From an uncultured Methanosarcinales archaeon (GTDB lineage Archaea > Nanobdellota > Nanobdellia > Woesearchaeales > CAYNLP01), in assembly GCA_964398115.1 (NCBI GenBank), contig CAYNLP010000001.1, positions 37,590 through 87,098 on the forward strand: a stretch of 49,509 nucleotides of DNA, given 5' to 3'. The notes below the pieces were generated by a model. The model had not been told where the DNA came from. It did not search any database and saw only the letters and a list, made by a program, of their open reading frames with translations. Position 1 is the first letter of the stretch. Every line of letters starts with the position of its first letter. This document shows positions 353 to 36,506 of the stretch, one piece after another. Both the position numbers and the translations under genes were made by a program.

Positions 353-453
353 CGTGGGAAAAAATCTTCTCATATCGGGATAGAAAACTAGAGAAGTGGA
401 GAGAAGAAAATAGCTGCAATTGTGATTGCAAAAAGGGTGAAGTAGAAGTATGA
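349..453 (+). CDS. 34-aa micro-ORF with a CNCDC cysteine cluster
   Basis: ATG at 349 overlaps the upstream stop. Its own TGA (451-453) overlaps the mcm ATG (450-452), giving a chain of ATGA couplings. Translation MTWEKIFSYRDRKLEKWREENSCNCDCKKGEVEV. Confidence 0.3.
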   Translation: MTWEKIFSYRDRKLEKWREENSCNCDCKKGEVEV

Positions 454-9702: not shown

Positions 9703-10404
9703 ATGAAGAAAACACTCCTAACTACAATTTTTATAAGCCTATTATTGATAGCTTGTTCGCCGCAAAAAGACAATCCTCAAACAGAAAAGATCGAAACAGT
9801 GAATGAAGTACTAGATGCTATCAAAAAACTTGATTCAGAATACAACACGTCTTTCAGAAGAGAACAAATGAATAAAGTCATTTTAAACACGGACGAAATC
9901 GAATCTTACTTGAGAGACTTAGAGAATATCAGTCAGAGAGTGGATGCTAAGAACCAGCAACAAGGTGAGTGGATTAATTGGACGTTACAAGCAAGAAAAG
10001 AAATGTTACTAAGCCAGTTCGGATTTCAACAAGCATGGGTTGGAGTTGGAAAATCTGGGAGGGTAAGTGAAGGTTTTTCCTGCAACGACTTTAATTCAGT
10101 GCAAAAGTCTAGTTTACTTTTAGAAAGATCTTTGCTTCTAGGAAACAACGCAACCAGCTACCTTGACGCGTTACTGACAGAAAACATGAATTTAAGTGAT
10201 GAAATCGGCGTGGATGAAAATAAACCCGCATTTTATAATTCAAAATTTGACGCCGTATACGTAGAGTTACAAAGAAATGCTGTGGCTATGAACGAATTCT
10301 GCAACCAAACAGTACAGTTTAACCATTATAATTTCACAAAACTTATAGAAGAAACAGACGTTAACACAAGCAAATACAAGAGAGGTGCTACAAATGGGAA
10401 TTGA
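9703..10404 (+). CDS. Secreted protein with bacterial-type lipobox, unknown function
   Basis: MKKTLLTTIFISLLLIACSPQ signal. No recognised domain. Confidence 0.6.
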   Translation: MKKTLLTTIFISLLLIACSPQKDNPQTEKIETVNEVLDAIKKLDSEYNTSFRREQMNKVILNTDEIESYLRDLENISQRVDAKNQQQGEWINWTLQARKEMLLSQFGFQQAWVGVGKSGRVSEGFSCNDFNSVQKSSLLLERSLLLGNNATSYLDALLTENMNLSDEIGVDENKPAFYNSKFDAVYVELQRNAVAMNEFCNQTVQFNHYNFTKLIEETDVNTSKYKRGATNGN

Positions 10405-10792
10405 AGAACCAGAATCTATGGAAAATTTGATGTATGTCACTAACAGAAGACTAGGCGACGGAAAGATAATGGCCTGGACTTATAGAGTTGACTGTCCAGA
10501 ATGCGATGAAGAATACCTTACTAAGCCCAGCAAGAAGACAGGGAAAGGGCCTAACACTCGAGCTAAAAAGTATACTTGTGACAACTGCGGTTTTGAAATG
10601 CCTGAAGAAGACGTTAGAGACGCAGCAGTGCTACAAGCCAAGTATACTTGTCCTCACTGTGGTGAGAAAGGAACAGCTGAAACCGACTACAAAAGAGAAA
10701 AGTACAAAGGGACAAAAGCTTACATCTTTACATGCGAACACTGTGATGAAGAAATTCCATTAACGAAGAAAATGAAAGAGGTCGACCTCTAA
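10394..10792 (+). CDS. Four-CxxC zinc-ribbon protein
   Basis: CPECDEE, CDNCGFE, CPHCGEK and CEHCDEE motifs. ATG 10394 follows AGAGGTG. GTG 10385 is an alternative start. Confidence 0.6.
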   Translation: MGIEEPESMENLMYVTNRRLGDGKIMAWTYRVDCPECDEEYLTKPSKKTGKGPNTRAKKYTCDNCGFEMPEEDVRDAAVLQAKYTCPHCGEKGTAETDYKREKYKGTKAYIFTCEHCDEEIPLTKKMKEVDL

Positions 10793-12304: not shown

Positions 12305-12378
12305 AGGGGTTGTAGTGTAGCTTGGCTATCACTCTGCGTTCGGGGCGCAGCAACGGGGGTTCAAATCCTCCCAACCCC
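12305..12378 (+). tRNA. tRNA-Pro (anticodon CGG)
   Basis: Acceptor GGGGTTG/CAACCCC plus A. Anticodon stem CTGCG/CGCAG with loop TTCGGGG. T arm GGGGG-TTCAAAT-CCTCC. 74 nt, no intron, no encoded CCA. Confidence 0.9.
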
Positions 12379-12424
12379 ACTTTCTATAACAATCTTTAAA
12401 AACCAACATTCTATCCTCTAAGTT

Positions 12425-14527: not shown

Positions 14528-14537
14528 TTTTTATATA
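14528..14537 (+). promoter_or_regulatory. TATA-box-like element upstream of the 1242-aa gene
   Basis: TTTTTATATA lies about 35 nt before ATG 14569, with no SD, consistent with a short or absent leader. Confidence 0.35.
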
Positions 14538-14568: not shown

Positions 14569-17500
14569 ATGACGAGAAAAGTAATCCTAGGCTTGATAAC
14601 CATCTTCTTACTAACCATACCTCTCTCATCAGGTCAAGAAGTAACCAATCTCGAACTCACTAAATACGATTCAAAAGTAGAACTTGTAAGCACACAAAAT
14701 TATAGAACCGCAGACATGCACTTCACCTACCAAGGACCCAGCTTCGACGAAGTAACTATCGACACCGGTAACCTCTACGTAGAAGATGACAATCCAGTAA
14801 AAACTATTTCTAGAAACAACTGTGTCAAAGAAAACGACGCTTACCACTGTACACTGACAGATTTAAGAATTCAACCACCCGTCCAAGAGGGAAACACATT
14901 CCAAGGACAGATAAACTTCAGATTCATAGGGGATGAAATCCACGAGGATAGAGTAAACTACAATTTCGAAATTGACAACACACAACCCGTGATTGAAAAC
15001 ATCGGCACACCTGCTTGCGAGGAAGACTGCAACATAGGACCAAACGGCAAGCTAAAAATAAAAATCCAAGATGAAAAAGCAAGTTTCAACAACGGCTACA
15101 TCTTCTACCACGTAAACGAAGGAAGCGCTTACATGGTCGACAGCTGCAACTCAACCACTTGCACCGCGTCGATAAACTACAACTGCCAACAAGGAGAAAA
15201 CGTAAAAGTTGACATTGGAGACTATCAAAACGTTCCAAGCCAAGATGACGCTGGCAACCCAGTAAGATTCAACGAAGGAGAAATCACAGAAACATTCACC
15301 TGCGACAGAACCAAGCCAGAAATTCAAAGCTTCACAGTAACAAGCGAAGGAACACCACAGATAACAGAGAATGAAACGGTGACGATACAAGCGACAGTGA
15401 AAGACAACAGCGCAGTATTGATAAAAGCTAACGCAAAGAGTTTCAACGAAAAAGACAAAGTATTAACAAACAAATGCACACCTAACGGGGAAAGTCAGCA
15501 ATGCACACTAAAGTTCAAAGCAAACAAGTCAGCTTACAGACAAGCCCGCATACAATTCACGTTTGAAGACGAAGCAGGAAACACCGTGTCAACAAAAAAA
15601 CAATTAGAAATACTGGAAGAAGCAACAGGAGACGTAAACAACCTATGGACAGTACGAAACGTCCAAGCCAGCCCAACACAAGTTAATACTAAAACACTTC
15701 AATATTTCGAAAAAAAGGTTTACGCATCCACCGCGTTAATCCCAGAACTGGGAGGTGCAGGAGTAGTACAGCAAAAACTTCAAGGATGTCAAGTTGAAGA
15801 ACCTAACATGAACCTTGAAGCAGAATTGATGAGTACAGGAAAAACATTCCAAGTAAAAACCACTCTCCCCACCAGCCTTTCTCAAACAAAGAAGTCAAAA
15901 ATATTCATAAACTGCACGGTTGAAACACACAGCAAGAGACGGACAAGAGCTGTTTCAAATTCAGAAATTGACAGTTTCAGCTACCAAATAAACCTAGAAG
16001 ACTTTCCAGACAGACCAGAAAAATTACAAGAAGAACTCAAAAACATACAAAGCCAAAACAAGAAGTGGAACGATTATTTTGGAACAGTTCAAAAATGGAC
16101 TAACACCTTCACCACGATTTGCAGAGCAGGACAAAAAATAAAGGGGATAACCGGCTTGTTAGGAGGAGTAGAACAAGCATTTTGCTCCAACCCAGTAACT
16201 GCAGGAGCAGCCCCAAGTTTGAAACCACCAGCGGACGCAACTGGTAAGTCAAGCGATGCATTATGGACAGGTCTAGGCAAGTTTTGCAAGTTCTTAACCT
16301 GCAATACCAAAGTACAAGAAGGATTGGAAGATTGGGTTACAAGCCTCGACTTCGGAAGTGGAGCAAGCGTAGACTCAATAACCTCAAGCCTAGGCTTGCC
16401 CAAAGAAGCGCTTTTCCGACCAGAAAACAGCTTAGTTTGGAGCGCCGCCACTTTATGCCTTCCAGGAATGGTTTCAAACCTACAACGCTACAGGGTCATC
16501 CAATGCGAATATCAGAGGTGCATACAGCAAGACAGCATACAAGCAGGAATTCCAAGCTATGCATGTAGAGAAGTAAAGAGTAGGAGTACATGTCAATTCA
16601 CGACAGGACAAATCAGCAAACTTATACCTCAAAGCTTGATGTTCCAACAAGCAGGAAATCTCGTAAAACAAGCACTATCCAACCCGATAGGCCTTCTTGG
16701 AGCAGGTATAAACACTGTCTTTAGTTGCGCCAGTAAACCAGCATGTAGTGGACACGTTGCATGTACCATAACCGACGCTGTAAGTAAAGTAGGACAGTAT
16801 GTCAGCATGTTCAAAGGCATTAGCAACACTGCAACCTCTATGAAGAATGGCTTTAATTCCGCCCAACAAACCGGACCATGCAAAGCAGTAAAAGAACAAG
16901 GAGATGTTGAACTGTACGACCCTGTCGTAGACTCACAAATATCAGAAAGTGAAAAGTCAAGTTTCAGAAATTGCCAAAACGGGATGTGCTCTAATGGAAA
17001 TATTAGAGTAGGACCAAATGGAAATACTGAACTATTAGCTTATCCAGACGATTCCGGTAACGGTAATCTTCATATAAAGTATGAAGGGAGTTATCGGCGA
17101 ATAGAAAGAACCTCAGAAAGTTTGAACATAGACATGACACAAACAATAGATGAAAATAATATAAAAAGTTCCCAGGCACAAACTATTACAATAGTTAGAA
17201 CCCAGCCAACAGTTACTGTAGGAATGCAAGCAGGATTGGAAACAACTGGATCTGACACTTTTTCCAAGAAACAGATTTTAGAGAAAACAGAGGCTGGAAC
17301 AACTCCTGCAACTGAAAAGGTATTGGCTGATAGAGATGAGTTGCAAGAACAAGCCCAGGAGAACCAGGAGAGAAAGCAACAACAGAGGGAAGATCAAGAA
17401 GAGTCCAATGAAGCAGCTAAACAACACGGTCAAGCGATAGGTCAACTAAACAAGTTAGAAAACGAAGTCGAAAGATGGGCTTCAAACCAAGAAGATTATA

Positions 17501-18297
17501 CTGCAAGCGATGTAGAAGATTTCATGAACGATCTTAAAAGTTACTGTTCAGGACCTGCTTGTAATGCTATACCAAAAGTTGAAGAGGTAAATAATGGAAA
17601 AGTAATCTTTGTCTCAGGCGAATCAATGGAAGCCAGCCAAGCAGTAGATTACGTAACTGACCAGATAAACCAGGCGAGAGACGAAAGAAAAGAAGAATTA
17701 CAAAACTTAATGGAAAAAGAATTAGACGCTTCCGATCACGTCATGGATGCTATAAGAACAGGTATCAGCTTTTCAAGAGTTGGCAACACCGCCGTGGATA
17801 TATTGGATCCGGATTGGGGATTCCTACAAGACTACAAAGAGATAGTGCCTCAAAAGATTGGTCAGATATTCGACGTACCCCAACAAGCAATAGGAAAAGC
17901 TTGCAAACAAAACTTTGACCTACAAACCACAGGAACTCTACCAGGCGGTCCAAGCGTGAACTTCCAGCCAGCAATGCATTTAGAGGCTTATAAGCAAGCT
18001 AGAGAGCCAGGAAGTGAGTATAGCATCACTGCAGTAGTCACGCCACCCGTCAAGGATAACGCGACTTTCAACATAGTAGCAAAAGGAGAGGAAGAAAAAG
18101 TGGTAGTGGAAGACGTCACGGTAACCAACACGTCAGGTAGTTACAGCAGAACCCGAACTAACACGATCAAGTTCAGAAGTGAAAATCAGTATGATAAAGT
18201 GTGCTTCCGATTTGAAAAAATTCCTGAAAACGGTTACGGCGGTATAAGCCTCGAAAACAACGAATTCTGTAACGAGGTAAAAGAGGTGGAAGTATGA
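14569..18297 (+). CDS. Giant secreted Cys-rich surface protein (Ig-like N-terminal repeats, Cys-rich core, Q/E coiled coil, beta-rich C-terminus)
   Basis: Sec signal MTRKVILGLITIFLLTIPLSSGQ. DxTxPxI-type Ig-domain starts (DNTQPVIENIG, DRTKPEIQSF). Very Cys-dense central region (about aa 520-790). Coiled coil ELQEQAQENQERKQQQREDQEE. No recognised family. Confidence 0.8.
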   Translation: MTRKVILGLITIFLLTIPLSSGQEVTNLELTKYDSKVELVSTQNYRTADMHFTYQGPSFDEVTIDTGNLYVEDDNPVKTISRNNCVKENDAYHCTLTDLRIQPPVQEGNTFQGQINFRFIGDEIHEDRVNYNFEIDNTQPVIENIGTPACEEDCNIGPNGKLKIKIQDEKASFNNGYIFYHVNEGSAYMVDSCNSTTCTASINYNCQQGENVKVDIGDYQNVPSQDDAGNPVRFNEGEITETFTCDRTKPEIQSFTVTSEGTPQITENETVTIQATVKDNSAVLIKANAKSFNEKDKVLTNKCTPNGESQQCTLKFKANKSAYRQARIQFTFEDEAGNTVSTKKQLEILEEATGDVNNLWTVRNVQASPTQVNTKTLQYFEKKVYASTALIPELGGAGVVQQKLQGCQVEEPNMNLEAELMSTGKTFQVKTTLPTSLSQTKKSKIFINCTVETHSKRRTRAVSNSEIDSFSYQINLEDFPDRPEKLQEELKNIQSQNKKWNDYFGTVQKWTNTFTTICRAGQKIKGITGLLGGVEQAFCSNPVTAGAAPSLKPPADATGKSSDALWTGLGKFCKFLTCNTKVQEGLEDWVTSLDFGSGASVDSITSSLGLPKEALFRPENSLVWSAATLCLPGMVSNLQRYRVIQCEYQRCIQQDSIQAGIPSYACREVKSRSTCQFTTGQISKLIPQSLMFQQAGNLVKQALSNPIGLLGAGINTVFSCASKPACSGHVACTITDAVSKVGQYVSMFKGISNTATSMKNGFNSAQQTGPCKAVKEQGDVELYDPVVDSQISESEKSSFRNCQNGMCSNGNIRVGPNGNTELLAYPDDSGNGNLHIKYEGSYRRIERTSESLNIDMTQTIDENNIKSSQAQTITIVRTQPTVTVGMQAGLETTGSDTFSKKQILEKTEAGTTPATEKVLADRDELQEQAQENQERKQQQREDQEESNEAAKQHGQAIGQLNKLENEVERWASNQEDYTASDVEDFMNDLKSYCSGPACNAIPKVEEVNNGKVIFVSGESMEASQAVDYVTDQINQARDERKEELQNLMEKELDASDHVMDAIRTGISFSRVGNTAVDILDPDWGFLQDYKEIVPQKIGQIFDVPQQAIGKACKQNFDLQTTGTLPGGPSVNFQPAMHLEAYKQAREPGSEYSITAVVTPPVKDNATFNIVAKGEEEKVVVEDVTVTNTSGSYSRTRTNTIKFRSENQYDKVCFRFEKIPENGYGGISLENNEFCNEVKEVEV

Positions 18298-20408
18298 AGA
18301 AAGGACAATTCACAATAACAGTGATAATAGCCCTGCTGATTCTAGTAGGAGTTGGTGTTTTCATATACTATACTTCTCAACCCACGGAAAATCCAGAGGT
18401 GGAAACTGAGGTGAAGACTCCTGTAGCGAGTTATGTTTCCAGCTGTACACAAGAAGTAGCTAGGCAAGGATTAGAAAGGATTGGCAGACAAGGCGGTTAC
18501 GTCAATTCGTCAAAACACTATTCCTTAGATAGTAATTTACCAACTACAGAAAAGCCATACTTGCAAGTGGCGCCAGATTCTGAAAGTATAATTCCATACT
18601 GGCATTACCTTCAATCAAGTAACGAGTGTTCAGAAAATTGTAGGTTTGAAAGTGAAGCACCTACGTTGCAGGGATCACAAGATAGTATTCAAGCACAATT
18701 AGAAAGGTATGTTGATAGAAATGTTGAGAATTGTATCGCAAACTTTTCTAGCATTCAAGAAAGCAAGGTTGAAGTCTTAGGTCAGCCACGTTCAAGAGTT
18801 GAATTTCTTGATAACAACGTACAAGTTAAATTGAATTATCCGTTAAGGGTTAAAACAGATACAGAGAACGTTACTTTAGAAGACCACACTGCAGAGTTGG
18901 ATGTCGCGTTTAAGAGGTTGTATAAGACAGCGATTGGTTTGAACAAGTTTAACACAAACGTTGACTTTTTCGAAAATTCTGTTTCAAAAAGCGTGCTTAA
19001 CTCACACTCTATGGGGTTAGATCCTGAAATACCTCCAATGCAAGGTGGTGTCGAGTTTGACAGTGCAGGTCCTTGGTACAAGCCAGATGTTAGAGAGAAA
19101 TTAAAGACTTATTTGAATGATGAAATGAGTAAGGTTAGCGTGGAAGGAACAGTTAACAGCCAAATCGTCCTGACAAACAATACAGTTAGGAATGCTCAAA
19201 ATGACGATCTCTACCTTCCAGGGGAAGGAACTCCTTATAGTTATCAAAAAATTTCTGACCTTGCTATAAGTTTTGAGTACTTGCCGTGGTGGGATTTGTA
19301 TCTTGACATCACTGGTGAGGGAAGCAGTGGACAATTCATAAGACCCCAGCCCATTTGGCCTCCTAGCCTTGGAGGAATGCTACTCCCGTTGCGTATAGAG
19401 AATTTCAATTATGATTTGAGTTATCCAGTAATGGCTACGGTTAGTCAACCAAATGCTTTCGGTGGAGACGGTTATGAACTCCGTTTTGCGGTAGAGTCTA
19501 ACTTAAGAAATAACGATCCTTTGAACTCCAGTTTTTCTTCTACGTTTTTAGAATTGCAAAGCACGGGAACTTATTTGTGTGATCAGCAGCAGAGAAATAG
19601 TGGCGATATTAATATCACGGTAGAGAACGAGGTTACGGGTGAAAGGTTGGAAGGAGCAAGCATACAGTATAGTTGTGGTTCTGAAAGTTGTTATATTGAT
19701 GAGACTAACAGTACTGGTTTCGTTTCAGAAAATTTACCGGTTTGTGGTAATGGATTGTTGACGGTTAACAAGCCAGGTTTTGGAAGTGAAGAAGTCAGCC
19801 TTACCACCCAGGCTGGTCGTTCAGAAAGTTTGACGGTGGAGTTAATGCCTGAGTTTGAAGTTGAGGCGACGGTTATGAAGAAAATGCTTGGTGAGGTTGA
19901 ACCTGAAAGTTATCAGGAAGAGAGTACTTGGAACTTTGTTGGTACTTTAAGAGAGTTAGAACGGGATGAAACCGCTATAATCGTTTTGAGAAAGGTTGAT
20001 AGTGACTACACCCGGGTTGTTGAGTATAATGGTTCTGGCGTTCCTGCAACGGTTTCACTTAGTCCTGGAACTTATGAATTAGAAGGTCACTTGACTAAGA
20101 ATGTTTCTGACAATCCAGTTGTCATTTCTGAAAAAGAAGTTTGTGAAGGAGTTCCTGGATTTGAAGAGTGTGTTGTTTTGAATAGCACTGAAATGAACAA
20201 GACTGTCTTAAGTGGAGGTTTGGATTTGAGTGGTGAAAACAGTGTGGACATTTCCGCTTCTAACCTTCAAAGCGGTAGTATTAGGTTTTACGTCGCAGGA
20301 GTAAATGTTAATGATATTGACAGGCATTTGGACATGACAGTTTTCGGGAAGTATCCTGAAATAACGGGTGATAACTCGGGAGAGTTTAAGCCTGAATTTA
20401 CTGGTTAG
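18294..20408 (+). CDS. Large surface protein with class III (type IV pilin-like) signal peptide
   Basis: N-terminus MKKGQFTITVIIALLILVGVGVFIYY matches the archaeal prepilin KGQ-plus-hydrophobic pattern. The ATG overlaps the upstream stop (ATGA) and follows GAGGTGG. There is a CarboxypepD_reg-like beta-sandwich segment (GDINITVENEVTGERLEGASIQ...LLTVNKPGF). Confidence 0.8.
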   Translation: MKKGQFTITVIIALLILVGVGVFIYYTSQPTENPEVETEVKTPVASYVSSCTQEVARQGLERIGRQGGYVNSSKHYSLDSNLPTTEKPYLQVAPDSESIIPYWHYLQSSNECSENCRFESEAPTLQGSQDSIQAQLERYVDRNVENCIANFSSIQESKVEVLGQPRSRVEFLDNNVQVKLNYPLRVKTDTENVTLEDHTAELDVAFKRLYKTAIGLNKFNTNVDFFENSVSKSVLNSHSMGLDPEIPPMQGGVEFDSAGPWYKPDVREKLKTYLNDEMSKVSVEGTVNSQIVLTNNTVRNAQNDDLYLPGEGTPYSYQKISDLAISFEYLPWWDLYLDITGEGSSGQFIRPQPIWPPSLGGMLLPLRIENFNYDLSYPVMATVSQPNAFGGDGYELRFAVESNLRNNDPLNSSFSSTFLELQSTGTYLCDQQQRNSGDINITVENEVTGERLEGASIQYSCGSESCYIDETNSTGFVSENLPVCGNGLLTVNKPGFGSEEVSLTTQAGRSESLTVELMPEFEVEATVMKKMLGEVEPESYQEESTWNFVGTLRELERDETAIIVLRKVDSDYTRVVEYNGSGVPATVSLSPGTYELEGHLTKNVSDNPVVISEKEVCEGVPGFEECVVLNSTEMNKTVLSGGLDLSGENSVDISASNLQSGSIRFYVAGVNVNDIDRHLDMTVFGKYPEITGDNSGEFKPEFTG

Positions 20409-21300
20409 ATTGGCTCATTATTTGTACGTCTTTTAACCTGTCGCAGTAGTTCTTGTTGTTTTCTTGTTGTACTTCGGTGCAGTATTGAGTTTGTCCTTCT
20501 ACTATAAAGTTCATGTAGCAGTTGTCTCTCGTGGTGGTATCGCTTATTTTTTGGCAGAATTGGGCTCTGTTTGATTCTTTTACTACGAGGAATAGGCAGT
20601 CATCTTTTTGGGTTTGGTTTTCTAGTTTCATGCAGAGTTGTTCTGCTTGGCTTGGTTGTGTGGCTGCTTTGTTGCGTACTTTTTCTAATATGTTGTCTTC
20701 AGTTGATTGATCTTTTGTTTCTTGAGAATTTCTTGGTTGTACTTGGAATGTGAATGAGGAGCTCGCCTTTTTACCGTCGTAGTTTGCTATTGCTTCGAGG
20801 GTGTAAGTTCCAGGCTGGTTGGGAGCTTGGATGCTTCCATCTCTTATCACGGAAGTGCTTACTGCAAATGTTTCTTCATTGCTATAAACCGCTTCTCCAT
20901 TATCATCTAAAATTTTGTAATTAACCACTGCGTCAAACTTTTCTGCATCTCCTAGATTGGTTAGTTTTATACTGTAAGATACTTGTCCGCCCGCTTGGAC
21001 GGTTCCTCCTGTCTTGGTGATTTGAAAGTCTAATAACGCTTCGGATCCTATCATGCCAGCGAATTCTAGAACTCCTATCACTATGCCGGCTGCTAGTATT
21101 AATAAGAGTAGGGTGTAGGCTATGGCAGATTTGGAGATGTGATGTTCGTGCTTTACTGTTTGTCCTGTTCTACTGGCTCTTTTCAACGCGTTGTTAATGG
21201 TTTGATTGTCGTATCCATAGTTTTCTAGATAACTCTTTATGTAATCCTCGCTATATCCTTGGTTGATGAGTTTTTCAACATAATCTGCCAGGTCTGTCAT
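20398..21300 (-). CDS. Bitopic membrane protein: cytoplasmic helical N-domain, TM, Ig/CARDB-like ectodomain, Cys-repeat tail
   Basis: N-terminal DYVEKLINQGYSEDYIKSYLENYGYD and TM AYTLLLLILAAGIVIGVL. Beta-sandwich-like GGQVSYSIKLTNLGDAE...PGTYTLEAIANY. C-terminal repeats of C-x8-10-(D/R)(D/N)-C. Confidence 0.7.
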   Translation of the reverse strand: MTDLADYVEKLINQGYSEDYIKSYLENYGYDNQTINNALKRASRTGQTVKHEHHISKSAIAYTLLLLILAAGIVIGVLEFAGMIGSEALLDFQITKTGGTVQAGGQVSYSIKLTNLGDAEKFDAVVNYKILDDNGEAVYSNEETFAVSTSVIRDGSIQAPNQPGTYTLEAIANYDGKKASSSFTFQVQPRNSQETKDQSTEDNILEKVRNKAATQPSQAEQLCMKLENQTQKDDCLFLVVKESNRAQFCQKISDTTTRDNCYMNFIVEGQTQYCTEVQQENNKNYCDRLKDVQIMSQSNQ

Positions 21301-21384
21301 TAACTTGTTTTTTACTACTGTTTGTATATAAAATTAGTGGAAAGGCAAAAGTTTAAATTCTACAATTACCTGGTTTATAAATTG

Positions 21385-21993
21385 ATGAGTGAAAAACCTG
21401 AACCGATTAGGAAGTTAGAGGAGAGAGATAAGCGTATTTATCAGGCTATTCAAAGTGCTCGGTTAGCTTCTACTCAAGCTAAGTTGGCTGGTGAGGAAAA
21501 GCTAGTGGATGAGTCGGGTAGTCCTGATTATGGCAAGTTGCAAGATAAAGAGGTTCAGGATGAGTCTATCGATGCTATGGTTGAGTCGTACGCTTCAGCT
21601 GCTACTAAGCATTTCCGAGTTGAGGACACTCCTGTTGACGATCCTGATTTCTATGAAGACTTGGTGAAGGAGTTTACTGGTTTGACTAGGGATGAATTGG
21701 AGAAGCATATGAGGACTCACGAAGATAAGTTCTTTGATGTTTTTTATGAGCAGGTGCATGATAATGTTATTAGTAGGTTGGAGAGACAGTTGAGGCCTTA
21801 TGCTCATGATCATATTGGTGAGGAGCATATTGATGATTTGGTTGAGCATATGGATTCAGAGGTTGATTACGATTCTGATATGTTGAAGCCTCGGCAAGCG
21901 GCTGTTTTGTATAATATGCATCAGAGTAGAGGGCCTGTGTCTGAGGAGGTTGTTGAAGATTTGCCGGATTATTTGATTAAAGATGCGGCTTAA
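21385..21993 (+). CDS. Acidic hypothetical protein
   Basis: 203-aa D/E-rich ORF from the first ATG. The track TTG start at 21322 is less plausible. No motif recognised. Confidence 0.5.
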   Translation: MSEKPEPIRKLEERDKRIYQAIQSARLASTQAKLAGEEKLVDESGSPDYGKLQDKEVQDESIDAMVESYASAATKHFRVEDTPVDDPDFYEDLVKEFTGLTRDELEKHMRTHEDKFFDVFYEQVHDNVISRLERQLRPYAHDHIGEEHIDDLVEHMDSEVDYDSDMLKPRQAAVLYNMHQSRGPVSEEVVEDLPDYLIKDAA

Positions 21994-22092
21994 GAATGAT
22001 TTCCTTTATAAATAAAACCGAAACATTTAAATACCACAAATGTAATTACTACTAATAGATAACAAAAAATTAAATTCAAGGGGGTAATCACC

Positions 22093-22716
22093 ATGCCAGA
22101 AGAAAACATTCCACAACCAGTTTCAACATACCGAGAGGAAAGAGACGAAGTTGATAGATCAACAAACGAAGCACGATTCAACTTCGAAAGAGGCTTAGTC
22201 AGAGGATTAGAAACACAGCTAGGTGAAAACGGTTACGACTGGCCCGCAGAAGGAGTAGACGCTGAAGAAGTAGCCGACACATACAGACAATTTGGTTTAG
22301 AATTCATAAGTGGAAAAGGTCAAGAACAAATCCAAAACGTTGGAAATATAGAAGATGATTCATTTGTCAACGCATTGCTTCACGGAGTCCTACCTAGAAC
22401 CAACTTAGTTTACAACATGGTTGACCAGATGGGAACAGATGTCAGCGTTGGAAGAATTGAACAAACAGATCAATTCCAAGAAGAAATGCAGACAGCTAGA
22501 CAAGCTAGAGCTAGTGACTTAGAAAGAGCAGCTCAAGAACTATCAGCTGAAGACGTTGTCAATTACACAGGAATTGATGAAGAGCCTTACGACTTAAACG
22601 CTGATAGGATTAGAGACAATCCGCAAATCTTCGGACCTCTCATCGACGCAAAAGATGAAGGTCAGTTGGAACAAATGTTGCGACAAGGCGGATTCTACCA
22701 ACCAAGTAGGAATTAA
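22093..22716 (+). CDS. Acidic hypothetical protein
   Basis: ATG lies 8 nt after GGGGGT. 207 aa, D/E/Q-rich, no motif recognised. Confidence 0.55.
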   Translation: MPEENIPQPVSTYREERDEVDRSTNEARFNFERGLVRGLETQLGENGYDWPAEGVDAEEVADTYRQFGLEFISGKGQEQIQNVGNIEDDSFVNALLHGVLPRTNLVYNMVDQMGTDVSVGRIEQTDQFQEEMQTARQARASDLERAAQELSAEDVVNYTGIDEEPYDLNADRIRDNPQIFGPLIDAKDEGQLEQMLRQGGFYQPSRN

Positions 22717-22798
22717 ATTTCTTTTCTCTATTTTTTTCCTATTTTTTTATCAAAACCTTTATAAATTTCTTAGAGTTAGCGATTTCTATGGGGGATAA

Positions 22799-24649
22799 AT
22801 GGTGAAAGATTACGAACCTTCTCAACTGCCGGAAGAACCCGATCCAGAAAAAGAAAATCCTTTAGATAATTTGGATCAACAGTTAGGTGAAGATCTCTCC
22901 AATGAAGCTCTAGACAAGCTTGAAGAAATCCAGGGCAAGTTGGACTCGTTTAAAGAAGACGTTCTAGATAAGTTCCAAGATTACGTAGTAGGCATTTCTT
23001 TACTTCCACCAAGTCAGGAAGAAGAGGCTAAAGATAACATAAACTTGATGGTGTTGATAGATGATTCAGACAGCGAAAAAATGAGTAAACAAGAACTTAA
23101 AGAAAAACTTACCAAAATCATCGGCGACATGGCACAAAACGTAGACGAAAATATGAAACCAGACGTCCTCCTCTTAAGTGAATTGTGGCAGATGTGCTAC
23201 GATGGAAAATACGACATATTACAAACAATTAGCATGAGCGCACCGGTTTATGACACAGGAATGCTAGACGCTATCAAAATTGCAGAAGTTCATAAAAACA
23301 TGGTTCTCGAAAAATTCGAAAAATACATCGTTTGCTACGTACTAGCCGGAAGCCTCGTACAAGGAAGAGCCACGCCCAAGTCAGACATTGATGTCTTCAT
23401 AGTAATTGACGACACCGACGTGAAAAGGATGAGTAGAGCCGAGCTTAAAGATAAATTACGAGCTATCATCGTTGGCATGGGAATGGACGCAGGAGAAATG
23501 ACCGGGATAAAGAACAAGTTAAACATTCAAGTATATATCCTCACTGACTTCTGGGATAATATCAAAGAAGCCAATCCGATTATCTTCACTTTCCTACGAG
23601 ATGGGGTGCCATTCTACGATCGAGGCATCTTCATGCCATGGAAACAACTCTTGCAGATGGGACGTATCAAGCCATCGCCGGAAGCAATAGACATGTACAA
23701 AAGCACCGGCGACAAAATGATTAAAAGAGCTCAAAGCAAATTGAAAGAGATAGCTATGGACGACTTGTTCTATGCAGCCTTGACACCAAGCCAAGCCGCG
23801 CTGATGATGTACGGTGAAGCACCACCGACGCCGAAAGAAACACCCGCCTTGTTAAAAGACATATTCGTAGAGAAAGAAGACTTACTAGAAGAAAAATACA
23901 TTAACACTATGAAGAAACTTATCAAAACCAGGAAGAGACTGGAACATGGAGACGTACAAGATATCAGTGGAGAAGAAATTGACGACTTGATGGAAAAAGC
24001 AGAAAACTACCTAGAAAGAATAAAAAGCTTATACGATGAAATAGAAGACTTGAAAGAAAGAGAAAGCATTATCGAAACATACGAGAAAGTTATTACAGTC
24101 GCTCGAGATGTTTTAAACCTAGAAGGAGTAGAGAAAGTAAGCGACGACAACATAATAGAAAAGTTTGAAAAAGAAGTCGTCAACGCAGGCATAATTCCAG
24201 AAAAGTTCTTAAGAATGATGAAAGACATAAAAGAAGCTAGAAATAAATACGAAAAAGGCGAACTCACCACATCTGACATTAACAAAGTGAAGAAACAAAG
24301 CAAAGAAGTTATCAAAAACTTAGTTGAACACATCCAAAGAAAGAGAGGAAGAGAACTAGAAAAAACTAAGTTAAGAGTCAAGTACGATGATGAAAAATTT
24401 GGAGAGATACTCTTACTAGAAAATCAAGCGTTCGTAACACACGACGTCGACAGTGAAGAAAAAGAAATTCACAAAGCAAGAATCACGGAAGAAGGAAGTT
24501 TAGAAAACATCGAAGAAAGCAGCTTAGAAGAAATGGAACAAGCTATTTCTAACACAGACCTACCTAACAGAACATTCATTAAAGAACCACTCTTTGAAGA
24601 CTTGAAAGACATTTTCGGCCGAGATGTAGAAGTTCTTGTCAATAGGTGA
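22799..24649 (+). CDS. Protein with duplicated minimal nucleotidyltransferase (Pol-beta-like) modules and long helical C-terminus
   Basis: Canonical GSLVQGRATPKSDIDVFIVIDDTD. An upstream degenerate copy (MVLIDDSDSEKMSKQELKEKL versus FIVIDDTDVKRMSRAELKDKL) shows internal duplication. Confidence 0.7.
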   Translation: MVKDYEPSQLPEEPDPEKENPLDNLDQQLGEDLSNEALDKLEEIQGKLDSFKEDVLDKFQDYVVGISLLPPSQEEEAKDNINLMVLIDDSDSEKMSKQELKEKLTKIIGDMAQNVDENMKPDVLLLSELWQMCYDGKYDILQTISMSAPVYDTGMLDAIKIAEVHKNMVLEKFEKYIVCYVLAGSLVQGRATPKSDIDVFIVIDDTDVKRMSRAELKDKLRAIIVGMGMDAGEMTGIKNKLNIQVYILTDFWDNIKEANPIIFTFLRDGVPFYDRGIFMPWKQLLQMGRIKPSPEAIDMYKSTGDKMIKRAQSKLKEIAMDDLFYAALTPSQAALMMYGEAPPTPKETPALLKDIFVEKEDLLEEKYINTMKKLIKTRKRLEHGDVQDISGEEIDDLMEKAENYLERIKSLYDEIEDLKERESIIETYEKVITVARDVLNLEGVEKVSDDNIIEKFEKEVVNAGIIPEKFLRMMKDIKEARNKYEKGELTTSDINKVKKQSKEVIKNLVEHIQRKRGRELEKTKLRVKYDDEKFGEILLLENQAFVTHDVDSEEKEIHKARITEEGSLENIEESSLEEMEQAISNTDLPNRTFIKEPLFEDLKDIFGRDVEVLVNR

Positions 24650-31433: not shown

Positions 31434-32063
31434 ATGAGCAAAGAAAACAAGACACCAAAGAAAAAAGGACACGATCGCAGCCAATTTCACCTAACCGAAG
31501 ACCAAATAAAACAATTAATTAAAACAACAGAAAAACTGCGAGATAAATTAATAATTAAATTACTAGCATACTGTGGCCTAAGAAGATTCGAAGTAGCAAA
31601 AATAAAACTAGAAGATATCGACTTAGAAGATCGCAAGATCAGAATCGAAGGCAAGAAAAATATTGAAAGACTGGCAACAATATTCGCAGATAGCCTTTTA
31701 GAAGATCTAAAAATGTATATCCGCTATGTGCTGGATGGAAGAGAAAAAGGGTACCTCTTCCCGGCAAAATCCATCCTCAATGAATCAGGACACATTTCAG
31801 AAACACAAATAAATAGAATAGTCGCAAAAGCAGGAGATAGAGCTGGTTTGAAAAATCCCGTCCCAGAACTAAAAAACATTAACCCGCACCTTCTAAGACA
31901 TAGTTGTGCCCGAATATTGAAAGATAGAGGTCTTAGTTTAGAAGTAGTTCAAAAGGTATTAGGCCACCTCTCATATCAAACAACAATGGATTTGTATGGT
32001 ACAAAAAGTATTTCTGAAATGGATGAAGAGCTTCAAGAAAAAATGGGAGATGCTTTTGAGTAA
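31434..32063 (+). CDS. Tyrosine recombinase/integrase, short form (catalytic domain only)
   Basis: Arg I in LAYCGLRRFEV, HxxR in HLLRHSCA, His in VLGHLS and catalytic Tyr in TTMDLYG. It is only 209 aa and Arg I falls near residue 50, so there is no normal N-terminal core-binding domain. Confidence 0.85.
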   Translation: MSKENKTPKKKGHDRSQFHLTEDQIKQLIKTTEKLRDKLIIKLLAYCGLRRFEVAKIKLEDIDLEDRKIRIEGKKNIERLATIFADSLLEDLKMYIRYVLDGREKGYLFPAKSILNESGHISETQINRIVAKAGDRAGLKNPVPELKNINPHLLRHSCARILKDRGLSLEVVQKVLGHLSYQTTMDLYGTKSISEMDEELQEKMGDAFE

Positions 32064-32214
32064 TCCCTCTAATAGCAAGAATTTATGATTAAATATTTTT
32101 GTCATAATTTGAAATTTTTGTAAAATCCAGCAAAAAGTTTTGTTTAAAACTTGTAATCAAAAACAAAATCATTAATTAATTGTTTGCCCAATATATAGGA
32201 TATACAATAAATAT

Positions 32215-32266
32215 AACTTTTAATCAATTATAATAAATAATATTTCTAAAATCTTTAATAAAAAAT
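32215..32266 (+). repeat. Right copy of the 52-bp imperfect direct repeat
   Basis: See 30349-30400. It ends 122 nt before ATG 32388. Confidence 0.6.
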
Positions 32267-32387
32267 TAAATTTTTCAAAAAATGGTATTAGACATTATTT
32301 CTTTTCAATATAAACAAAAAATAGTTTTTCTAAATACGCGCGTTAGAAAGATTTAAATAAGAATTCAGGGGAATAAAACACTAGAAT

Positions 32388-32981
32388 ATGAAGGTTTTAC
32401 AATCGAACAGTAGATTAAAAATATTTATTCTATCTGTTATATCTACATTGTTCATCCCAAGTGTAGCAGGTGAAACAGGTCTCGATCCATTAAACAATGT
32501 TGTACGTATGATTGCTGAATTCTTCACAATACCTGCCTTAAACAATGAAGAAGTACAACTTGGCATCATAAAATTCGGAATATTCCTAATAGTTTTCGCC
32601 ATAGCCCATCTTGCACTCAGGAACGTTTGGGGAAGCGGATATGGCGGAGGAGCTAATCAAGCAAGAGCAGCCAAAGTCATAGCTTTTGTTGTAGCATTTA
32701 TTGGAAGCTTCTTCATGCCCAACGGATGGGCATTAGCACTAGGAGGAGTAATTGCAGGCCTCGTTATATTCTTACTCGTAGGTGGAGGAGCATACTATGC
32801 CACTATGAAGCTTAAAGATGACTGGCTACAAAATCTCTTCGGACTTATAATAATACTGCTCTTAATCTGGCTGACATCCACTTTTAGAGGCTACTTACAC
32901 GGAGCTAATGTTGGAGTAGGAACTGCACCAGTCTTCGTATTTGGAGCTAGGAGGTTGTTCAAATGGCTCTCTCACCAATAA
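32388..32981 (+). CDS. Polytopic membrane protein with Sec-type signal, Gly-rich loops, unknown family
   Basis: Signal IFILSVISTLFIPSVAGE followed by four or five hydrophobic helices. First gene of a four-gene operon. Confidence 0.65.
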   Translation: MKVLQSNSRLKIFILSVISTLFIPSVAGETGLDPLNNVVRMIAEFFTIPALNNEEVQLGIIKFGIFLIVFAIAHLALRNVWGSGYGGGANQARAAKVIAFVVAFIGSFFMPNGWALALGGVIAGLVIFLLVGGGAYYATMKLKDDWLQNLFGLIIILLLIWLTSTFRGYLHGANVGVGTAPVFVFGARRLFKWLSHQ

Positions 32982-35107: not shown

Positions 35108-35120
35108 AGGTGGCAAAGTC

Positions 35121-36056: not shown

Positions 36057-36071
36057 AGGAGGTAACTAATT

Positions 36072-36482
36072 ATGAACAAGAAAGGAGTTGTTTTCACAAG
36101 ACCAAGGGACACGTTAAGCTTTTTCATAGGACTTTTCGTAACCGCCGTAGGACTGATACCCTTACTAAATAGTTGGGGATTGATAGGCTTCAACATACCA
36201 TTGATATCGAACTTAAGCGCCAAAGTCTTGATATGGGCAGTTGCTATCTTCGGAGCATATGTCCTTATAGACGGCTTGATAGAACCACCTATGCACAGCC
36301 TTCACTGGATCCTGATAATCGCTGGTGGCGTCATGATGATAACCGGTTTGCTTCCTATCTTAAACAGCATGGGAGTGATAAGCTTTAGCCTTTCATTCCT
36401 AGAAGGCAACACCATGATTTACCGCATCTTGCTAAGCATTGAAGGCATAAGCCTCGTAATCGGCGGATTAACCATGCACTAA
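36072..36482 (+). CDS. Four-TM membrane protein with internal two-fold duplication
   Basis: AAGGAGGT SD. The halves share GLIPLLNSWGLIGFNIP versus GLLPILNSMGVISFSLS. Confidence 0.7.
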   Translation: MNKKGVVFTRPRDTLSFFIGLFVTAVGLIPLLNSWGLIGFNIPLISNLSAKVLIWAVAIFGAYVLIDGLIEPPMHSLHWILIIAGGVMMITGLLPILNSMGVISFSLSFLEGNTMIYRILLSIEGISLVIGGLTMH

Positions 36483-36506
36483 GTCGGAATTTTTCCGACA
36501 TTTTTT
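36483..36506 (+). terminator. Hairpin plus T-tract immediately after the operon stop codon
   Basis: GTCGGAA-ttt-TTCCGAC is a perfect 7-bp stem (36483-36499), followed by A then TTTTTT (36501-36506). Confidence 0.55.

What the first reader, a model, noticed from the sequence alone, without database searches (positions are those of the whole stretch)
14569..20408. Translationally coupled giant surface-protein pair: Cys-rich 1242-aa secreted protein plus 704-aa protein with a pilin-type signal peptide
Two very large genes overlap by ATGA (18294-18297), and GAGGTGG precedes the second start. The first has a Sec signal, Ig-like N-terminal repeats, an unusually Cys-dense roughly 270-aa core that I cannot assign to any family, a Q/E coiled coil and a beta-rich C-terminus. 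The second begins MKKGQFTITVIIALLILVGVGVFIYY. That is the archaeal class III (prepilin) pattern of basic residues, Gly, Gln and then a hydrophobic helix, but it is attached to a 680-aa ectodomain instead of a small pilin. This arrangement resembles a filament-tip or minor-pilin-anchored adhesin paired with a secreted partner. In an episymbiotic small-genome archaeon it would be a plausible host-attachment device. Together with the convergent membrane protein at 20398-21300, this is a candidate undescribed surface system.
Basis: partly seen in the sequence, partly recalled or inferred. Interest (0 to 1): 0.75.

Follow-up and report, generated by a model that had tools for sequence, protein, structure and literature searches.

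The report
Pilin-anchored surface-protein cassette of Woesearchaeota
Two overlapping genes encode a secreted, disulfide-rich giant protein and a partner with a pilin-type signal peptide; the pair is conserved across many small-genome (DPANN) archaea, belongs to no described protein family, and is a good but unproven candidate for how these cells build a surface or host-contact structure.

Summary
Gene A (14569-18297, 1242 aa) and gene B (18294-20408, 704 aa) overlap by ATGA, with GAGGTGG before B's start. Both partner families are adjacent and co-oriented in 65 of 89 sequences examined; most exceptions are cut by a contig end. B relatives occur in at least 132 species-level genomes, all Woesearchaeota/Nanoarchaeia-type. 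The usual order is B then A, so this window shows a minority arrangement. Here A is also fused to a third cassette protein, "C". B's N-terminus, [K/R][K/R]-[G/A/S]-Q-[V/I]-[T/S]-x-F-I-I-I-G, is kept in 111 of 113 family members, and the Gln is invariant. Real pilins encoded beside type IV pilus ATPase/platform genes in six related loci have the same K-[A/G]|Q junction. A has only a Sec-type signal and no membrane anchor. Its Cys-rich core has ten invariant cysteines and is predicted as a long-helix bundle with no match in Pfam, PDB or viral structure libraries. B's N-terminal ectodomain is also unassigned; its C-terminal beta-sandwiches resemble adhesin, pilin and SlaB stalk domains. Best reading: a pilin-type-anchored B tethers secreted A on the cell surface. 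The tip-adhesin and host-attachment roles remain inference. The window encodes no prepilin peptidase or pilus machinery.

The parts
14530..14537 (+). TTTATATA, an archaeal TATA-box-like element about 32-39 nt upstream of the A start codon; it implies a very short leader
   Evidence: Read directly from the sequence. No archaeal promoter tool was available; the sigma-70 scan does not apply to archaea. Inference.
14569..18297 (+). Gene A, 1242 aa: a Sec-signal secreted protein without a membrane anchor. It consists of Ig-like repeats, a Cys-rich helical core and a fused C-like domain.
   Evidence: ORF. Homologues in L001 and L002. Hydropathy. No Pfam or NCBIfam family.
14569..14634 (+). Predicted Sec-type signal peptide of A (aa 1-22, MTRKVILGLITIFLLTIPLSSG|QE)
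   Evidence: N-terminal hydrophobic segment, Kyte-Doolittle mean 1.85. All A-family partners have comparable N-termini. The cleavage site is inferred; no signal-peptide predictor was available.
14746..15618 (+). Ig-like repeat region of A (aa ~60-350), with a Cys pair in each repeat
   Evidence: Cys positions. Weak Glucodextran_B hit at aa 256-291. Big_13/Big_3_3 hits in 6 and 5 of 40 family members, and a repeated C..C..DxxGN..DxxxP consensus. Boundaries are approximate.
16066..16893 (+). Cys-rich core of A (aa ~500-775): the conserved module of the A family, predicted as an all-alpha long-helix bundle with ten invariant Cys (aa 518, 573, 578, 630, 646, 651, 666, 675, 732, 771)
   Evidence: Alignment A5 of 58 sequences. 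AF2 model pLDDT 76, pTM 0.64, all helices. Exhaustive phmmer finds 814 representative clusters. No fold match in PDB (best E 0.16) or BFVD (best E 0.029). No PDB sequence relative.
16870..18288 (+). C-like region of A (aa 768-1240), homologous to the separate ~600-740-aa Sec-signal protein 'C' that follows A in most relatives. It includes the Q/E-rich charged stretch at aa ~900-1000.
   Evidence: The HMM of neighbour cluster 3 matches W_A 768-1240, i-Evalue 1.6e-10. Cluster 3 sits right after A in 36 loci. Charge profile.
18284..18290 (+). GAGGTGG Shine-Dalgarno-like motif, ending 3 nt (18291-18293) before the B start codon
   Evidence: Sequence. L002 has GAGGTG in the same place. Only 18 of 62 pairs in relatives have an SD-like motif there.
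18294..18297 (+). ATGA start/stop overlap (translational coupling of A and B)
   Evidence: The same 4-nt overlap is found in 26 of 62 adjacent pairs in relatives.
18294..20408 (+). Gene B, 704 aa: a surface glycoprotein candidate anchored by a class III (prepilin-type) signal
   Evidence: ORF. Ten homologues. 132 species genomes carry a relative. AF2 model pLDDT 74.9. N-glycosylation sequons at 1.56 per 100 aa, against 0-0.7 per 100 aa in the 14 other window proteins compared.
18294..18374 (+). Class III-type signal and hydrophobic helix of B (MKKG|QFTITVIIALLILVGVGVFIYY, aa 1-27)
   Evidence: Family logo: -3/-2 K or R, -1 G/A/S, +1 Q 100%, +3 T/S, +5 F 94%, +9 G 90% in 111 of 113 members. The motif is otherwise found only in pilin-like small proteins among 983 ORFs. 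Modelled helix 3-27. Cleavage itself is inferred.
18411..19553 (+). Conserved N-terminal alpha/beta ectodomain of B (aa ~40-420), with the YDxSYPV and FxxExNxRNN motifs and conserved C51/C147; no known family or fold match
   Evidence: Alignments A1 and A3. Model. No Pfam hit in 11 members. No PDB sequence hit. Foldseek hits cover only the C-terminal domains.
19581..20243 (+). Two beta-sandwich stalk-type domains of B (aa ~430-650; transthyretin-like / CarboxypepD_reg-like)
   Evidence: Foldseek hits: transthyretin-like domain of carboxypeptidase D (TM 0.79-0.80 on the target), CnaB2 domain, Gram-positive pilins, SlaB 8qox_B at E 1.3e-6. CarboxypepD_reg hits in 2 of 11 family members.
20398..21300 (-). 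Convergent 300-aa single-pass membrane protein with a DUF11-like Ig domain and a Cys-rich C-terminus; a recurrent neighbour of B
   Evidence: ORF. DUF11 E 2e-4, below the curated cut-off. The family (cluster 7) lies next to B in 14 loci. Whether it belongs to the system is not established.

Best explanation
A and B are obligate partners of a cell-surface complex specific to Woesearchaeota/Nanoarchaeia-type DPANN archaea.

Proposed mechanism:
1. A and B are made from one transcript and translationally coupled through the ATGA overlap, which favours matched amounts.
2. A is exported through Sec. Its signal peptide is removed, and it has no anchor of its own.
3. B carries a type IV pilin-like (class III) signal. 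A prepilin peptidase of the EppA/PibD type is inferred to cut between Gly4 and Gln5.
4. That leaves a highly conserved hydrophobic helix. It either stays in the membrane as a stalk or is loaded by a type IV pilus-like machine into a short filament.
5. B's linker, orphan alpha/beta head and two beta-sandwich domains project outward and hold A.
6. A displays Ig-like repeats and a helical bundle locked by about five disulfides. In this lineage A also includes the otherwise separate subunit C.
7. The most likely role is a surface or contact structure, for attachment to or interaction with another cell or a substrate.

Shown here: the gene structure, the coupling, co-conservation of the pair, the conserved class III signature and its specificity, the lack of an anchor on A, the A::C fusion, and the absence of known family or fold for the two key domains.

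Inferred: peptidase cleavage, physical A-B binding, any filament association, and the adhesion or host-contact role.
For: Coupling: ATGA overlap plus GAGGTGG.

Co-conservation: an A-core protein is on the same strand as B in 70 of 89 sources and adjacent in 65. Of 62 non-redundant adjacent pairs, 32 overlap and 16 more lie within 30 nt. The pairing holds in either gene order, and the shared part of A is the Cys-rich core.

Fusion: A residues 768-1240 match the downstream subunit C of relatives, i-Evalue 1.6e-10.

Class III signature: it is present in 111 of 113 B-family members, with Q at 100%, F at +5 in 94% and G at +9 in 90%. Pilins next to T2SSE/T2SSF in L009, L010, L013, L015 and L027 have the same junction (KKKA|QAAMEF, RKA|QASIEV). 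Among 983 ORFs the motif occurs only in B proteins and small pilin-like proteins. In L006, two of those small pilin-like ORFs lie directly upstream of B-A.

Literature: the +1 Gln is essential for EppA processing in M. maripaludis (PMC4390842). Class III signals on large non-pilin surface proteins, and large adhesins in archaeal T4P loci, are established (PMC4858521; preprint 10.64898/2026.04.22.720090).

Pilus machinery nearby: an ATPase and two platform genes lie within 10 kb upstream in 6 of the 34 loci with enough flank.

Topology: A has no hydrophobic segment beyond its signal, and B has only the N-terminal one.

Surface character: B's beta-sandwich domains resemble adhesin, pilin and SlaB stalk domains. 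B is enriched in N-glycosylation sequons. Both proteins have conserved Cys pairs.

Origin: cellular, not viral.
Against: - The 49.5-kb window has no prepilin peptidase, T2SSE or T2SSF. The rest of this genome could not be read.
- T4P genes are near the cassette in only 6 of 34 loci, probably about two lineages, so the linkage is modest.
- Pfam's Class_IIIsignal model does not hit B, and B lacks the +5 Glu typical of Epd-type pilins.
- In the AF2 model the N-terminal helix joins the ectodomain through a low-confidence linker, not a continuous pilin alpha-1/beta-sheet fold.
- No A-B complex prediction could be run, so binding rests only on genomic evidence.
- Nothing identifies a ligand, a host or an adhesive activity.
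Confidence: 0.55

Rival explanations
1. The cassette encodes the main cell-envelope (S-layer-type) scaffold of these archaea. B would be the membrane-anchored stalk and A (with C) the outer canopy, like SlaB/SlaA in Sulfolobales. It would be a housekeeping wall rather than an attachment device.
For: - The pair is widespread and sits in a stable core-genome position next to MetRS in 41 loci.
- The two-component logic fits: an anchored ~700-aa protein plus an anchorless ~1000-1250-aa secreted protein in one operon.
- SlaB (8qox_B) is among B's best Foldseek hits, E 1.3e-6.
- B is sequon-rich and both proteins are acidic.
- Sequence divergence is fast, 22-32% identity between relatives.
Against: - B's anchor is N-terminal with a pilin-type signature, not a C-terminal TM like SlaB's.
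- The SlaB match covers generic beta-sandwich domains only, with TM-scores of 0.12-0.18.
- The most conserved part of A is an all-alpha, ten-cysteine bundle, unlike the beta-rich lattice domains of known S-layer proteins.
- The full cassette has two B-type proteins, three secreted proteins and membrane proteins, which is more complex than a lattice plus anchor.
- One A-family member carries a lytic transglycosylase domain.
- Small pilin genes or T4P operons adjoin the cassette in some lineages.
Confidence: 0.22
2. B is an ordinary uncleaved type II (signal-anchor) membrane protein. In this reading the K-K-G-Q motif and conserved helix reflect topology or helix-helix packing within the complex, not prepilin-peptidase processing or any link to pilus machinery.
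For: - No peptidase or pilus genes in the window.
- Most cassettes (28 of 34 with enough flank) have no T4P genes nearby.
- No Class_IIIsignal Pfam hit, and no +5 Glu.
- A flexible linker, not a pilin fold, follows the helix.
Against: - An invariant Gln immediately after a G/A/S that follows two basic residues, in 111 of 113 members, is the EppA-type cleavage signature and is not needed for a signal anchor.
- The same junction is used by true pilins in the same loci.
- The motif is absent from the roughly 860 other ORFs scanned, apart from small pilin-like proteins.
- Bindosome-type class III proteins also have a linker after the helix.
Confidence: 0.13
3. The complex acts on a partner cell's membrane or wall. 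B would position A, and A's disulfide-locked helical bundle would rearrange and insert into, or open, the partner cell's envelope, as a feeding, fusion or pore device.
For: - The A-core is a bundle of very long helices, one of 58 residues, with low-charge Gly/Ala/Ser/Thr-rich, moderately hydrophobic conserved segments such as LSNPIGLLGAGINTVF. Blocks of residues 501-550 and 651-750 are only 8-14% charged.
- One family member adds an SLT lytic transglycosylase domain.
- DPANN archaea are known to depend on host cells (general knowledge, not tested here).
Against: - No structural similarity to any known pore-former, translocator or fusogen; the best hits are generic BAR-like bundles at E >= 0.16.
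- Hydrophobicity is below transmembrane level, at most 1.13.
- SLT is found in one member only; 40 other members show only Ig-like domains.
- Ten invariant cysteines argue for a rigid rather than a refolding domain.
Confidence: 0.08

Closest known systems
Archaeal class III-signal (type IV pilin-like) proteins with large non-pilin ectodomains, e.g. the bindosome sugar-binding proteins GlcS/AraS/TreS of Saccharolobus processed by PibD
   Same: A short basic leader ends in a small residue and is followed by a conserved hydrophobic helix, a flexible linker and a large globular ectodomain. The genes are often not located in the T4P locus (for the literature; for B).
   Different: B's ectodomain is not a substrate-binding protein and has no known family. 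It is not next to an ABC transporter. It is strictly paired with a Sec-secreted giant partner. The +1 residue is an invariant Gln, as in EppA substrates.
EppA-processed Epd pilins of Methanococcus maripaludis and the archaeal TFF 'System 1' (two platform genes), which is also reported in DPANN
   Same: A K-G/A|Q cleavage junction with an essential +1 Gln (PMC4390842). Related loci carry an ATPase, two platform genes and small pilins with that junction. That matches the System 1 layout described in preprint 10.64898/2026.04.22.720090.
   Different: B is 700 aa rather than a small pilin, lacks the +5 Glu and the QxSxEF-type DUF361 motif, gets no PF04021 hit and does not model as a pilin fold.
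Modular and tip-located type IV pilus adhesins in bacteria (S. sanguinis PilB/PilC modular pilins; PilY1 with minor pilins), and the large 'adhesin or S-layer-like' proteins noted in archaeal T4P loci (Makarova et al. 2016, PMC4858521)
   Same: The concept is shared: a pilin-type N-terminus or pilus association is used to display a large functional module, and conserved cysteines are noted in archaeal T4P-associated secreted proteins.
   Different: No pilin module, vWA, lectin, DUF2341 or beta-propeller domain was detected in A or B. The cassette is usually not inside a T4P locus.
SlaA/SlaB two-component S-layer of Sulfolobales
   Same: An operon encoding a large anchorless secreted protein plus a smaller membrane-anchored partner with beta-sandwich domains. 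SlaB is a Foldseek hit for B.
   Different: The anchor polarity is opposite and of pilin type. A's conserved module is an all-alpha Cys-rich bundle. There is no sequence relationship.

Membership tests
Class III signal peptide / type IV pilin-like proteins (archaeal) | Short N-terminal leader with basic residues at -2/-3 and G/A/S at -1 | tested here: met
   MKKG|Q in the window. Family-wide: -3 K75%/R17%, -2 K45%/R44%, -1 G74%/A19%/S5%.
Class III signal peptide / type IV pilin-like proteins (archaeal) | A hydrophobic helix of about 20 residues immediately after the cleavage site | tested here: met
   Kyte-Doolittle 19-residue maximum of 2.94 at residue 6. AF2 helix 3-27. The QVTxFIIIGI consensus is strongly conserved.
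Class III signal peptide / type IV pilin-like proteins (archaeal) | Cleavage by an A24-family prepilin peptidase (PibD/EppA/FlaK) encoded in the same genome | not testable with these tools
   No A24 peptidase among the window's ORFs. The rest of the 87-kb contig and the genome are not retrievable. Cleavage needs experiment.
Class III signal peptide / type IV pilin-like proteins (archaeal) | Match to the curated Pfam model Class_IIIsignal (PF04021/DUF361) | tested here: not met
   B has no Pfam hit at E <= 0.1, and none of 11 family members hits it.
Class III signal peptide / type IV pilin-like proteins (archaeal) | Genomic association with a T4P-type ATPase (T2SSE) and platform protein (T2SSF) | tested here: inconclusive
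   Absent from the window. Present within 10 kb upstream in 6 of 34 related loci with enough flank. Small pilin-like ORFs lie directly upstream of B in L006.
Type IV pilin fold (structural pilin or minor pilin) | A continuous alpha-1 helix whose C-terminal half packs on the globular beta domain | tested here: not met
   In the AF2 model, helix 3-27 is followed by a low-confidence linker at residues 29-37, and a separate helix 41-65 starts the ectodomain. The linker region varies in length across the family. The model rests on 11 sequences, so this is not a strong negative.
EppA-type (Epd pilin) substrates | Gln at +1, essential for EppA processing (PMC4390842) | tested here: met
   Gln at +1 in 100% of the 111 members with an N-terminus. 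Literature statement.
EppA-type (Epd pilin) substrates | Small pilin with the conserved QxSxEF/Glu+5 N-terminal motif | tested here: not met
   B is 704 aa. Position +5 is Thr in the window and Phe in 94% of the family.
Bindosome-type class III substrate-binding proteins | A periplasmic/solute-binding-protein domain next to an ABC transporter | tested here: not met
   No SBP family hit. The neighbours are MetRS, A, a 300-aa membrane protein and an NTP-transferase.
SlaA/SlaB-type two-component S-layer | Anchor subunit with a C-terminal TM helix and coiled coil; canopy subunit made of beta-rich domains | tested here: not met
   B's only TM helix is N-terminal. The SlaB similarity is limited to beta-sandwich domains, TM 0.12-0.18. 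A's conserved module is all-alpha.
PilY1-like / DUF2341 pilus-tip adhesins | DUF2341 or a PilY1 beta-propeller domain | tested here: not met
   No such Pfam hit in A, B or 40 A-family and 11 B-family members.

The most novel reading that the evidence does not exclude
The cassette is an undescribed DPANN-specific cell-contact machine. Pilin-anchored B proteins, loaded by an Epd/System 1-type T4P apparatus, would present secreted partners. A's disulfide-stapled helical bundle would be a new kind of envelope-engaging module that docks onto or opens the host cell surface. That would make it the long-sought molecular basis of Woesearchaeal episymbiosis.
Probability: 0.12. Interest if true: 0.9.

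Novelty: new variant of a known kind. Interest (0 to 1): 0.6.

Why it matters
Woesearchaeota and their relatives are abundant, uncultured archaea with small genomes. How they build their envelope or attach to partner cells is unknown.

This work defines a conserved and easily recognised gene cassette, found in at least 132 species-level genomes, with 814 sequence clusters for the A core. The cassette has a pilin-type anchored subunit and two domains with no known family or fold.

It offers concrete targets for proteomics, antibody or cryo-ET labelling, and structure determination in enrichment cultures.

It would also extend the known use of class III signal peptides in archaea from pilins and solute-binding proteins to tethering a multi-subunit surface complex.

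If the complex turns out to be only an S-layer-like wall, it would still be the first candidate envelope proteins for this large clade.

Tried and rejected
- Word-indexed homology search with the A-core alignment returned nothing, not even the query's own protein. This was a failure of candidate selection, not evidence of absence: the exhaustive phmmer search found 814 clusters.
With the single protein it found no relatives. It worked only with a 6-sequence subset.
- Looking up the window's own contig through B and through MCM failed, so the genome's pilus machinery could not be examined.
- Foldseek of full-length B was dominated by generic beta-sandwich domains and says nothing about the N-terminal head. 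No sub-domain search was possible.
- A-core Foldseek against PDB and BFVD gave only insignificant long-helix matches to BAR domains, chemoreceptors and tape-measure proteins. I rejected these as homology.
- Profile searches against PDB sequences gave only noise, E >= 0.029.
- The weak Pfam hits were rejected as below threshold and unsupported: Glucodextran_B for A, MmdD and SAG1386 for B's TM helix, and CagE_TrbE_VirB for the ORF at 35121.
- The idea that the window cluster at 32.4-37.0 kb corresponds to the accessory genes of L002's T4P operon was not supported; BLAST found no hits.
- Viral or mobile-element origin was rejected: there are no relatives in IMG/VR contigs.
- The sigma-70 promoter/terminator scan does not apply to an archaeon and was not used.

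Full report
**1. Observation**

The window has two long same-strand ORFs: A at 14569-18297 (1242 aa) and B at 18294-20408 (704 aa). The junction reads aaaGAGGTGGaagtATGAag, so B's ATG overlaps A's TGA by four bases and a Shine-Dalgarno-like GAGGTGG ends three bases (18291-18293) before B's ATG. A TTTATATA element at 14530-14537 lies about 32-39 nt before A's ATG. That would suit an archaeal TATA box with a very short leader, but this comes from reading the sequence, not from a test.

A begins with a Sec-like signal (MTRKVILGLITIFLLTIPLSSG|QE). It has no other segment whose 19-residue hydropathy exceeds 1.13. B has a single strongly hydrophobic segment, at residues 1-32. Neither protein reaches any Pfam or NCBIfam threshold.

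**2. Organism and context**

The window encodes archaeal housekeeping genes: MCM, LonB, Kae1/TsaD, MetRS, a class Ib aminoacyl-tRNA synthetase and an undecaprenyl-diphosphate-synthase-type prenyltransferase. It has one tRNA-Pro.

Relatives of B are found only in MAGs labelled Woesearchaeota, Nanoarchaeota or Nanoarchaeia. Many others are labelled 'uncultured Methanosarcinales', but one of these is a complete 774-kb chromosome, so that label is very likely wrong. The small-genome DPANN assignment is therefore supported indirectly.

**3. The pair is one conserved unit, and part of a larger cassette**

B has ten distant homologues at 22-32% identity. A scan of species-representative genomes found 132 genomes with a relative, and 80 loci were retrieved.

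I called ORFs in all 89 available sequences and searched them with HMMs of B and of the A core. An A-core protein lies on the same strand as B in 70 of them and is directly adjacent in 65. Most of the 19 without A are cut by a contig end. Among 62 non-redundant adjacent pairs, 32 overlap (26 by exactly 4 nt) and 16 more lie within 30 nt.

The usual order is B then A. The window, L001 and L002 show the minority order, A then B. MetRS sits upstream in 41 loci.

Complete examples (L010, and the complete chromosome L037) show a longer, translationally coupled cassette:
- MetRS
- a small membrane protein (not always present)
- B1
- A
- C, a Sec-signal protein of about 600-740 aa, found in 36 loci
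- a ~250-270-aa membrane protein, found in 31 loci
- B2, a second B-type protein with the same N-terminus
- D, an Ig/fn3-rich Sec-signal protein

The window lacks separate C, B2 and D. However, an HMM of C matches A residues 768-1240 (i-Evalue 1.6e-10). The window's A is therefore an A::C fusion, which is independent evidence that these subunits work together.

The convergent 300-aa membrane protein (20398-21300) belongs to a family that lies next to B in 14 loci.

No relative was found in viral contigs.

**4. B's N-terminus is a class III-type signature**

In 111 of 113 B-family proteins the N-terminus reads [K/R][K/R]-[G/A/S]-Q-[V/I]-[T/S]-[V/I]-F-I-I-I-G. The two exceptions are N-terminally truncated fragments. 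Gln is present in 100%, Phe at +5 in 94% and Gly at +9 in 90%. The window's version (KKG|QFTITVIIA) is a slightly divergent copy.

In six related loci a divergent operon lies 6-8 kb upstream. It encodes a T2SSE-type ATPase, two T2SSF-type platform genes and small pilins whose junctions are KKKA|QAAMEF and RKA|QASIEV, that is, the same K-[A/G]|Q site.

Across 983 ORFs from 86 loci, the motif occurs only in B proteins, in those pilins, and in two small pilin-like ORFs that directly precede B-A in L006.

[quoted passage not shown] A T4P 'System 1' with two platform genes is reported in methanogens and DPANN (preprint 10.64898/2026.04.22.720090).

An invariant Gln at this position, and this degree of helix conservation, are not expected for a plain signal anchor. 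I therefore take prepilin-type processing as likely. It remains an inference:
- The window has no A24 peptidase, ATPase or platform gene.
- The rest of the genome was unreachable.
- T4P genes are close to the cassette in only 6 of 34 loci with enough flank, probably about two lineages.

**5. Structures**

B was modelled with an 11-sequence alignment (pLDDT 74.9, pTM 0.51). The model shows:
- helix 3-27
- a low-confidence Pro/Glu/Thr-rich linker
- an alpha/beta region (residues ~40-420) that carries the family's conserved motifs (YDxSYPV, FxxExNxRNN, C51/C147)
- two beta-sandwich domains (~430-650)
- a small helical C-terminus

Foldseek against the PDB matches only the beta-sandwiches. The hits are transthyretin-like/CarboxypepD_reg domains, CnaB-type Gram-positive pilin and adhesin domains, and SlaB of the Sulfolobus S-layer, with low global TM-scores. 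The head region has no Pfam, PDB-sequence or fold match. B is not modelled as a pilin fold. Its layout of helix, linker and large ectodomain resembles bindosome-type class III proteins. B is enriched in N-glycosylation sequons, at 1.56 per 100 aa against 0-0.7 per 100 aa in the 14 other window proteins compared.

The A core was modelled with 58 sequences (pLDDT 76, pTM 0.64). It is all-alpha, with very long helices, one of 58 residues. Ten cysteines are invariant (A residues 518, 573, 578, 630, 646, 651, 666, 675, 732, 771), which suggests five disulfides. The core has no significant match in the PDB (best E 0.16, BAR-like bundles), in BFVD (best E 0.029) or in PDB sequences.

The A-core family is large. 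An exhaustive phmmer search found 814 clusters at 50% identity with E <= 1e-3, and 383 with E <= 1e-10. Most are ~1000-1100-aa proteins with the core at the C-terminus.

The only other recurrent domains in the A family are Ig-like (Big_13, Big_3_3). One member, in L006, adds a C-terminal SLT lytic transglycosylase domain.

**6. Most likely mechanism**

A is exported by Sec and has no anchor. B has a pilin-type anchor and stalk-like domains. The two genes are coupled and co-inherited, and in this lineage A is fused to a third subunit.

The best-supported reading is a surface complex in which processed B tethers A (and C) to the cell. The tether would be either B's helix staying in the membrane or B being built into a short T4P-type fibre.

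A contact or attachment role is plausible from several features: the adhesin-like domains, the proximity to pilin and T4P genes in some lineages, the lifestyle of the clade, and the single SLT fusion. It has not been shown. I put this explanation at 0.55.

**7. Rivals**

- S-layer-type anchor plus canopy, 0.22. Stable core-genome position, two-component logic and the SlaB hit favour it. Anchor polarity, the all-alpha Cys-rich core, the cassette's complexity and the pilin links count against it.
- Plain uncleaved signal anchor, 0.13. The missing machinery in the window and the non-pilin fold favour it. The invariant Gln, the junction shared with pilins and the motif's specificity count against it.
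- Membrane- or wall-active device, 0.08. Long low-charge helices and the SLT fusion favour it. The lack of any fold similarity to pore-formers or fusogens, sub-transmembrane hydrophobicity and rigid disulfides count against it.

**8. Comparison with known systems and novelty**

Several things are already known in archaea: class III signals on large non-pilin proteins, large adhesin-like or S-layer-like secreted proteins associated with T4P loci, and conserved cysteines in such proteins. Modular pilins are known in bacteria.

What is new here:
- the specific cassette, with a strictly paired class III-anchored B and Sec-secreted A, plus C, B2 and D
- its breadth in Woesearchaeota-type genomes
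- two domains with no family or fold assignment

I found no description of it in the searchable literature, although that library is incomplete.

I classify it as a new variant of a known kind, a pilin-type-anchored archaeal surface complex, built from new protein families. Interest is 0.6. The 'filament-tip adhesin for host attachment' reading is a reasonable but untested refinement.

Noticed in passing
window 31434-36966: A tyrosine recombinase (Phage_integrase, E 2e-32) at 31434-32063 is followed by a same-strand cluster of family-less membrane or secreted proteins: 197 aa, 714 aa with a weak CarboxypepD_reg domain, 311 aa, 136 aa, and a 139-aa lipoprotein-like protein. GC drops to 0.31 at 30-32 kb. 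This may be an integrated element or a second surface-protein cluster.
   Followed up: partly
L006 3622-7335 (partner of B in a JGI metagenome contig): This A-family protein carries a C-terminal SLT lytic transglycosylase domain (E 2.5e-9, aa 1092-1165) and a TSP3 repeat. Two small pilin-like ORFs (KKG|QLEI..., KRG|QAEI...) sit directly upstream of B in the same operon. A peptidoglycan-cleaving domain in a wall-less archaeal lineage hints at action on a bacterial partner.
   Followed up: partly
L009-L088 record titles, e.g. L037 = OZ246410.1: About 30 of the 80 genome records that carry the cassette are titled 'uncultured Methanosarcinales archaeon', including a complete 774-kb chromosome.
   Followed up: no
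window 21322-24649, and L002 12385-15769: Downstream of the pair, a 616-aa protein with a nucleotidyltransferase (NTP_transf_2/Polbeta) domain is 62% identical to its L002 counterpart. CBS-domain and prenyltransferase genes follow it in the same order in both loci. The two small acidic proteins between B and this gene (223 and 207 aa; 222 and 228 aa in L002) have no family and no detectable mutual similarity.
   Followed up: partly
window 10385-10792 and 12306-12380: A multi-zinc-ribbon protein (135 aa; DUF7560/DUF7836 hits) belongs to a family found upstream of MetRS in 17 of the related loci, so synteny extends beyond the cassette. A tRNA-Pro(CGG) lies immediately upstream of MetRS.
   Followed up: no
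L010 1-6607, and the equivalent regions of L002, L009, L013, L015, L027: The T4P-like operon next to the cassette also includes a conserved ~610-680-aa cytoplasmic protein with an N-terminal winged-helix/DeoR-like HTH and a weak TPR hit (split into 149 aa + 676 aa in L002), located between the ATPase and the divergent promoter. It may be a dedicated regulator or assembly factor.
   Followed up: no
window 450-2573: The MCM helicase carries an extra N-terminal winged-helix region (weak TFIIE_alpha/MarR-type hits at aa 36-118) ahead of the canonical MCM_N/OB/AAA/lid domains.
   Followed up: no
window 44903-46027 (-): A 374-aa AAA_22/STAND-like NTPase (AAA_22 E 6e-14; weak NB-ARC and NACHT hits). 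It could be an Orc1/Cdc6-type protein or a STAND defence NTPase. This was not resolved.
   Followed up: no
tool behaviour: The word-indexed protein search with the A-core alignment returned zero hits, whereas the exhaustive HMMER search with the same region found 814 clusters. Low-complexity or compositionally unusual queries can make the indexed search fail silently.
   Followed up: yes
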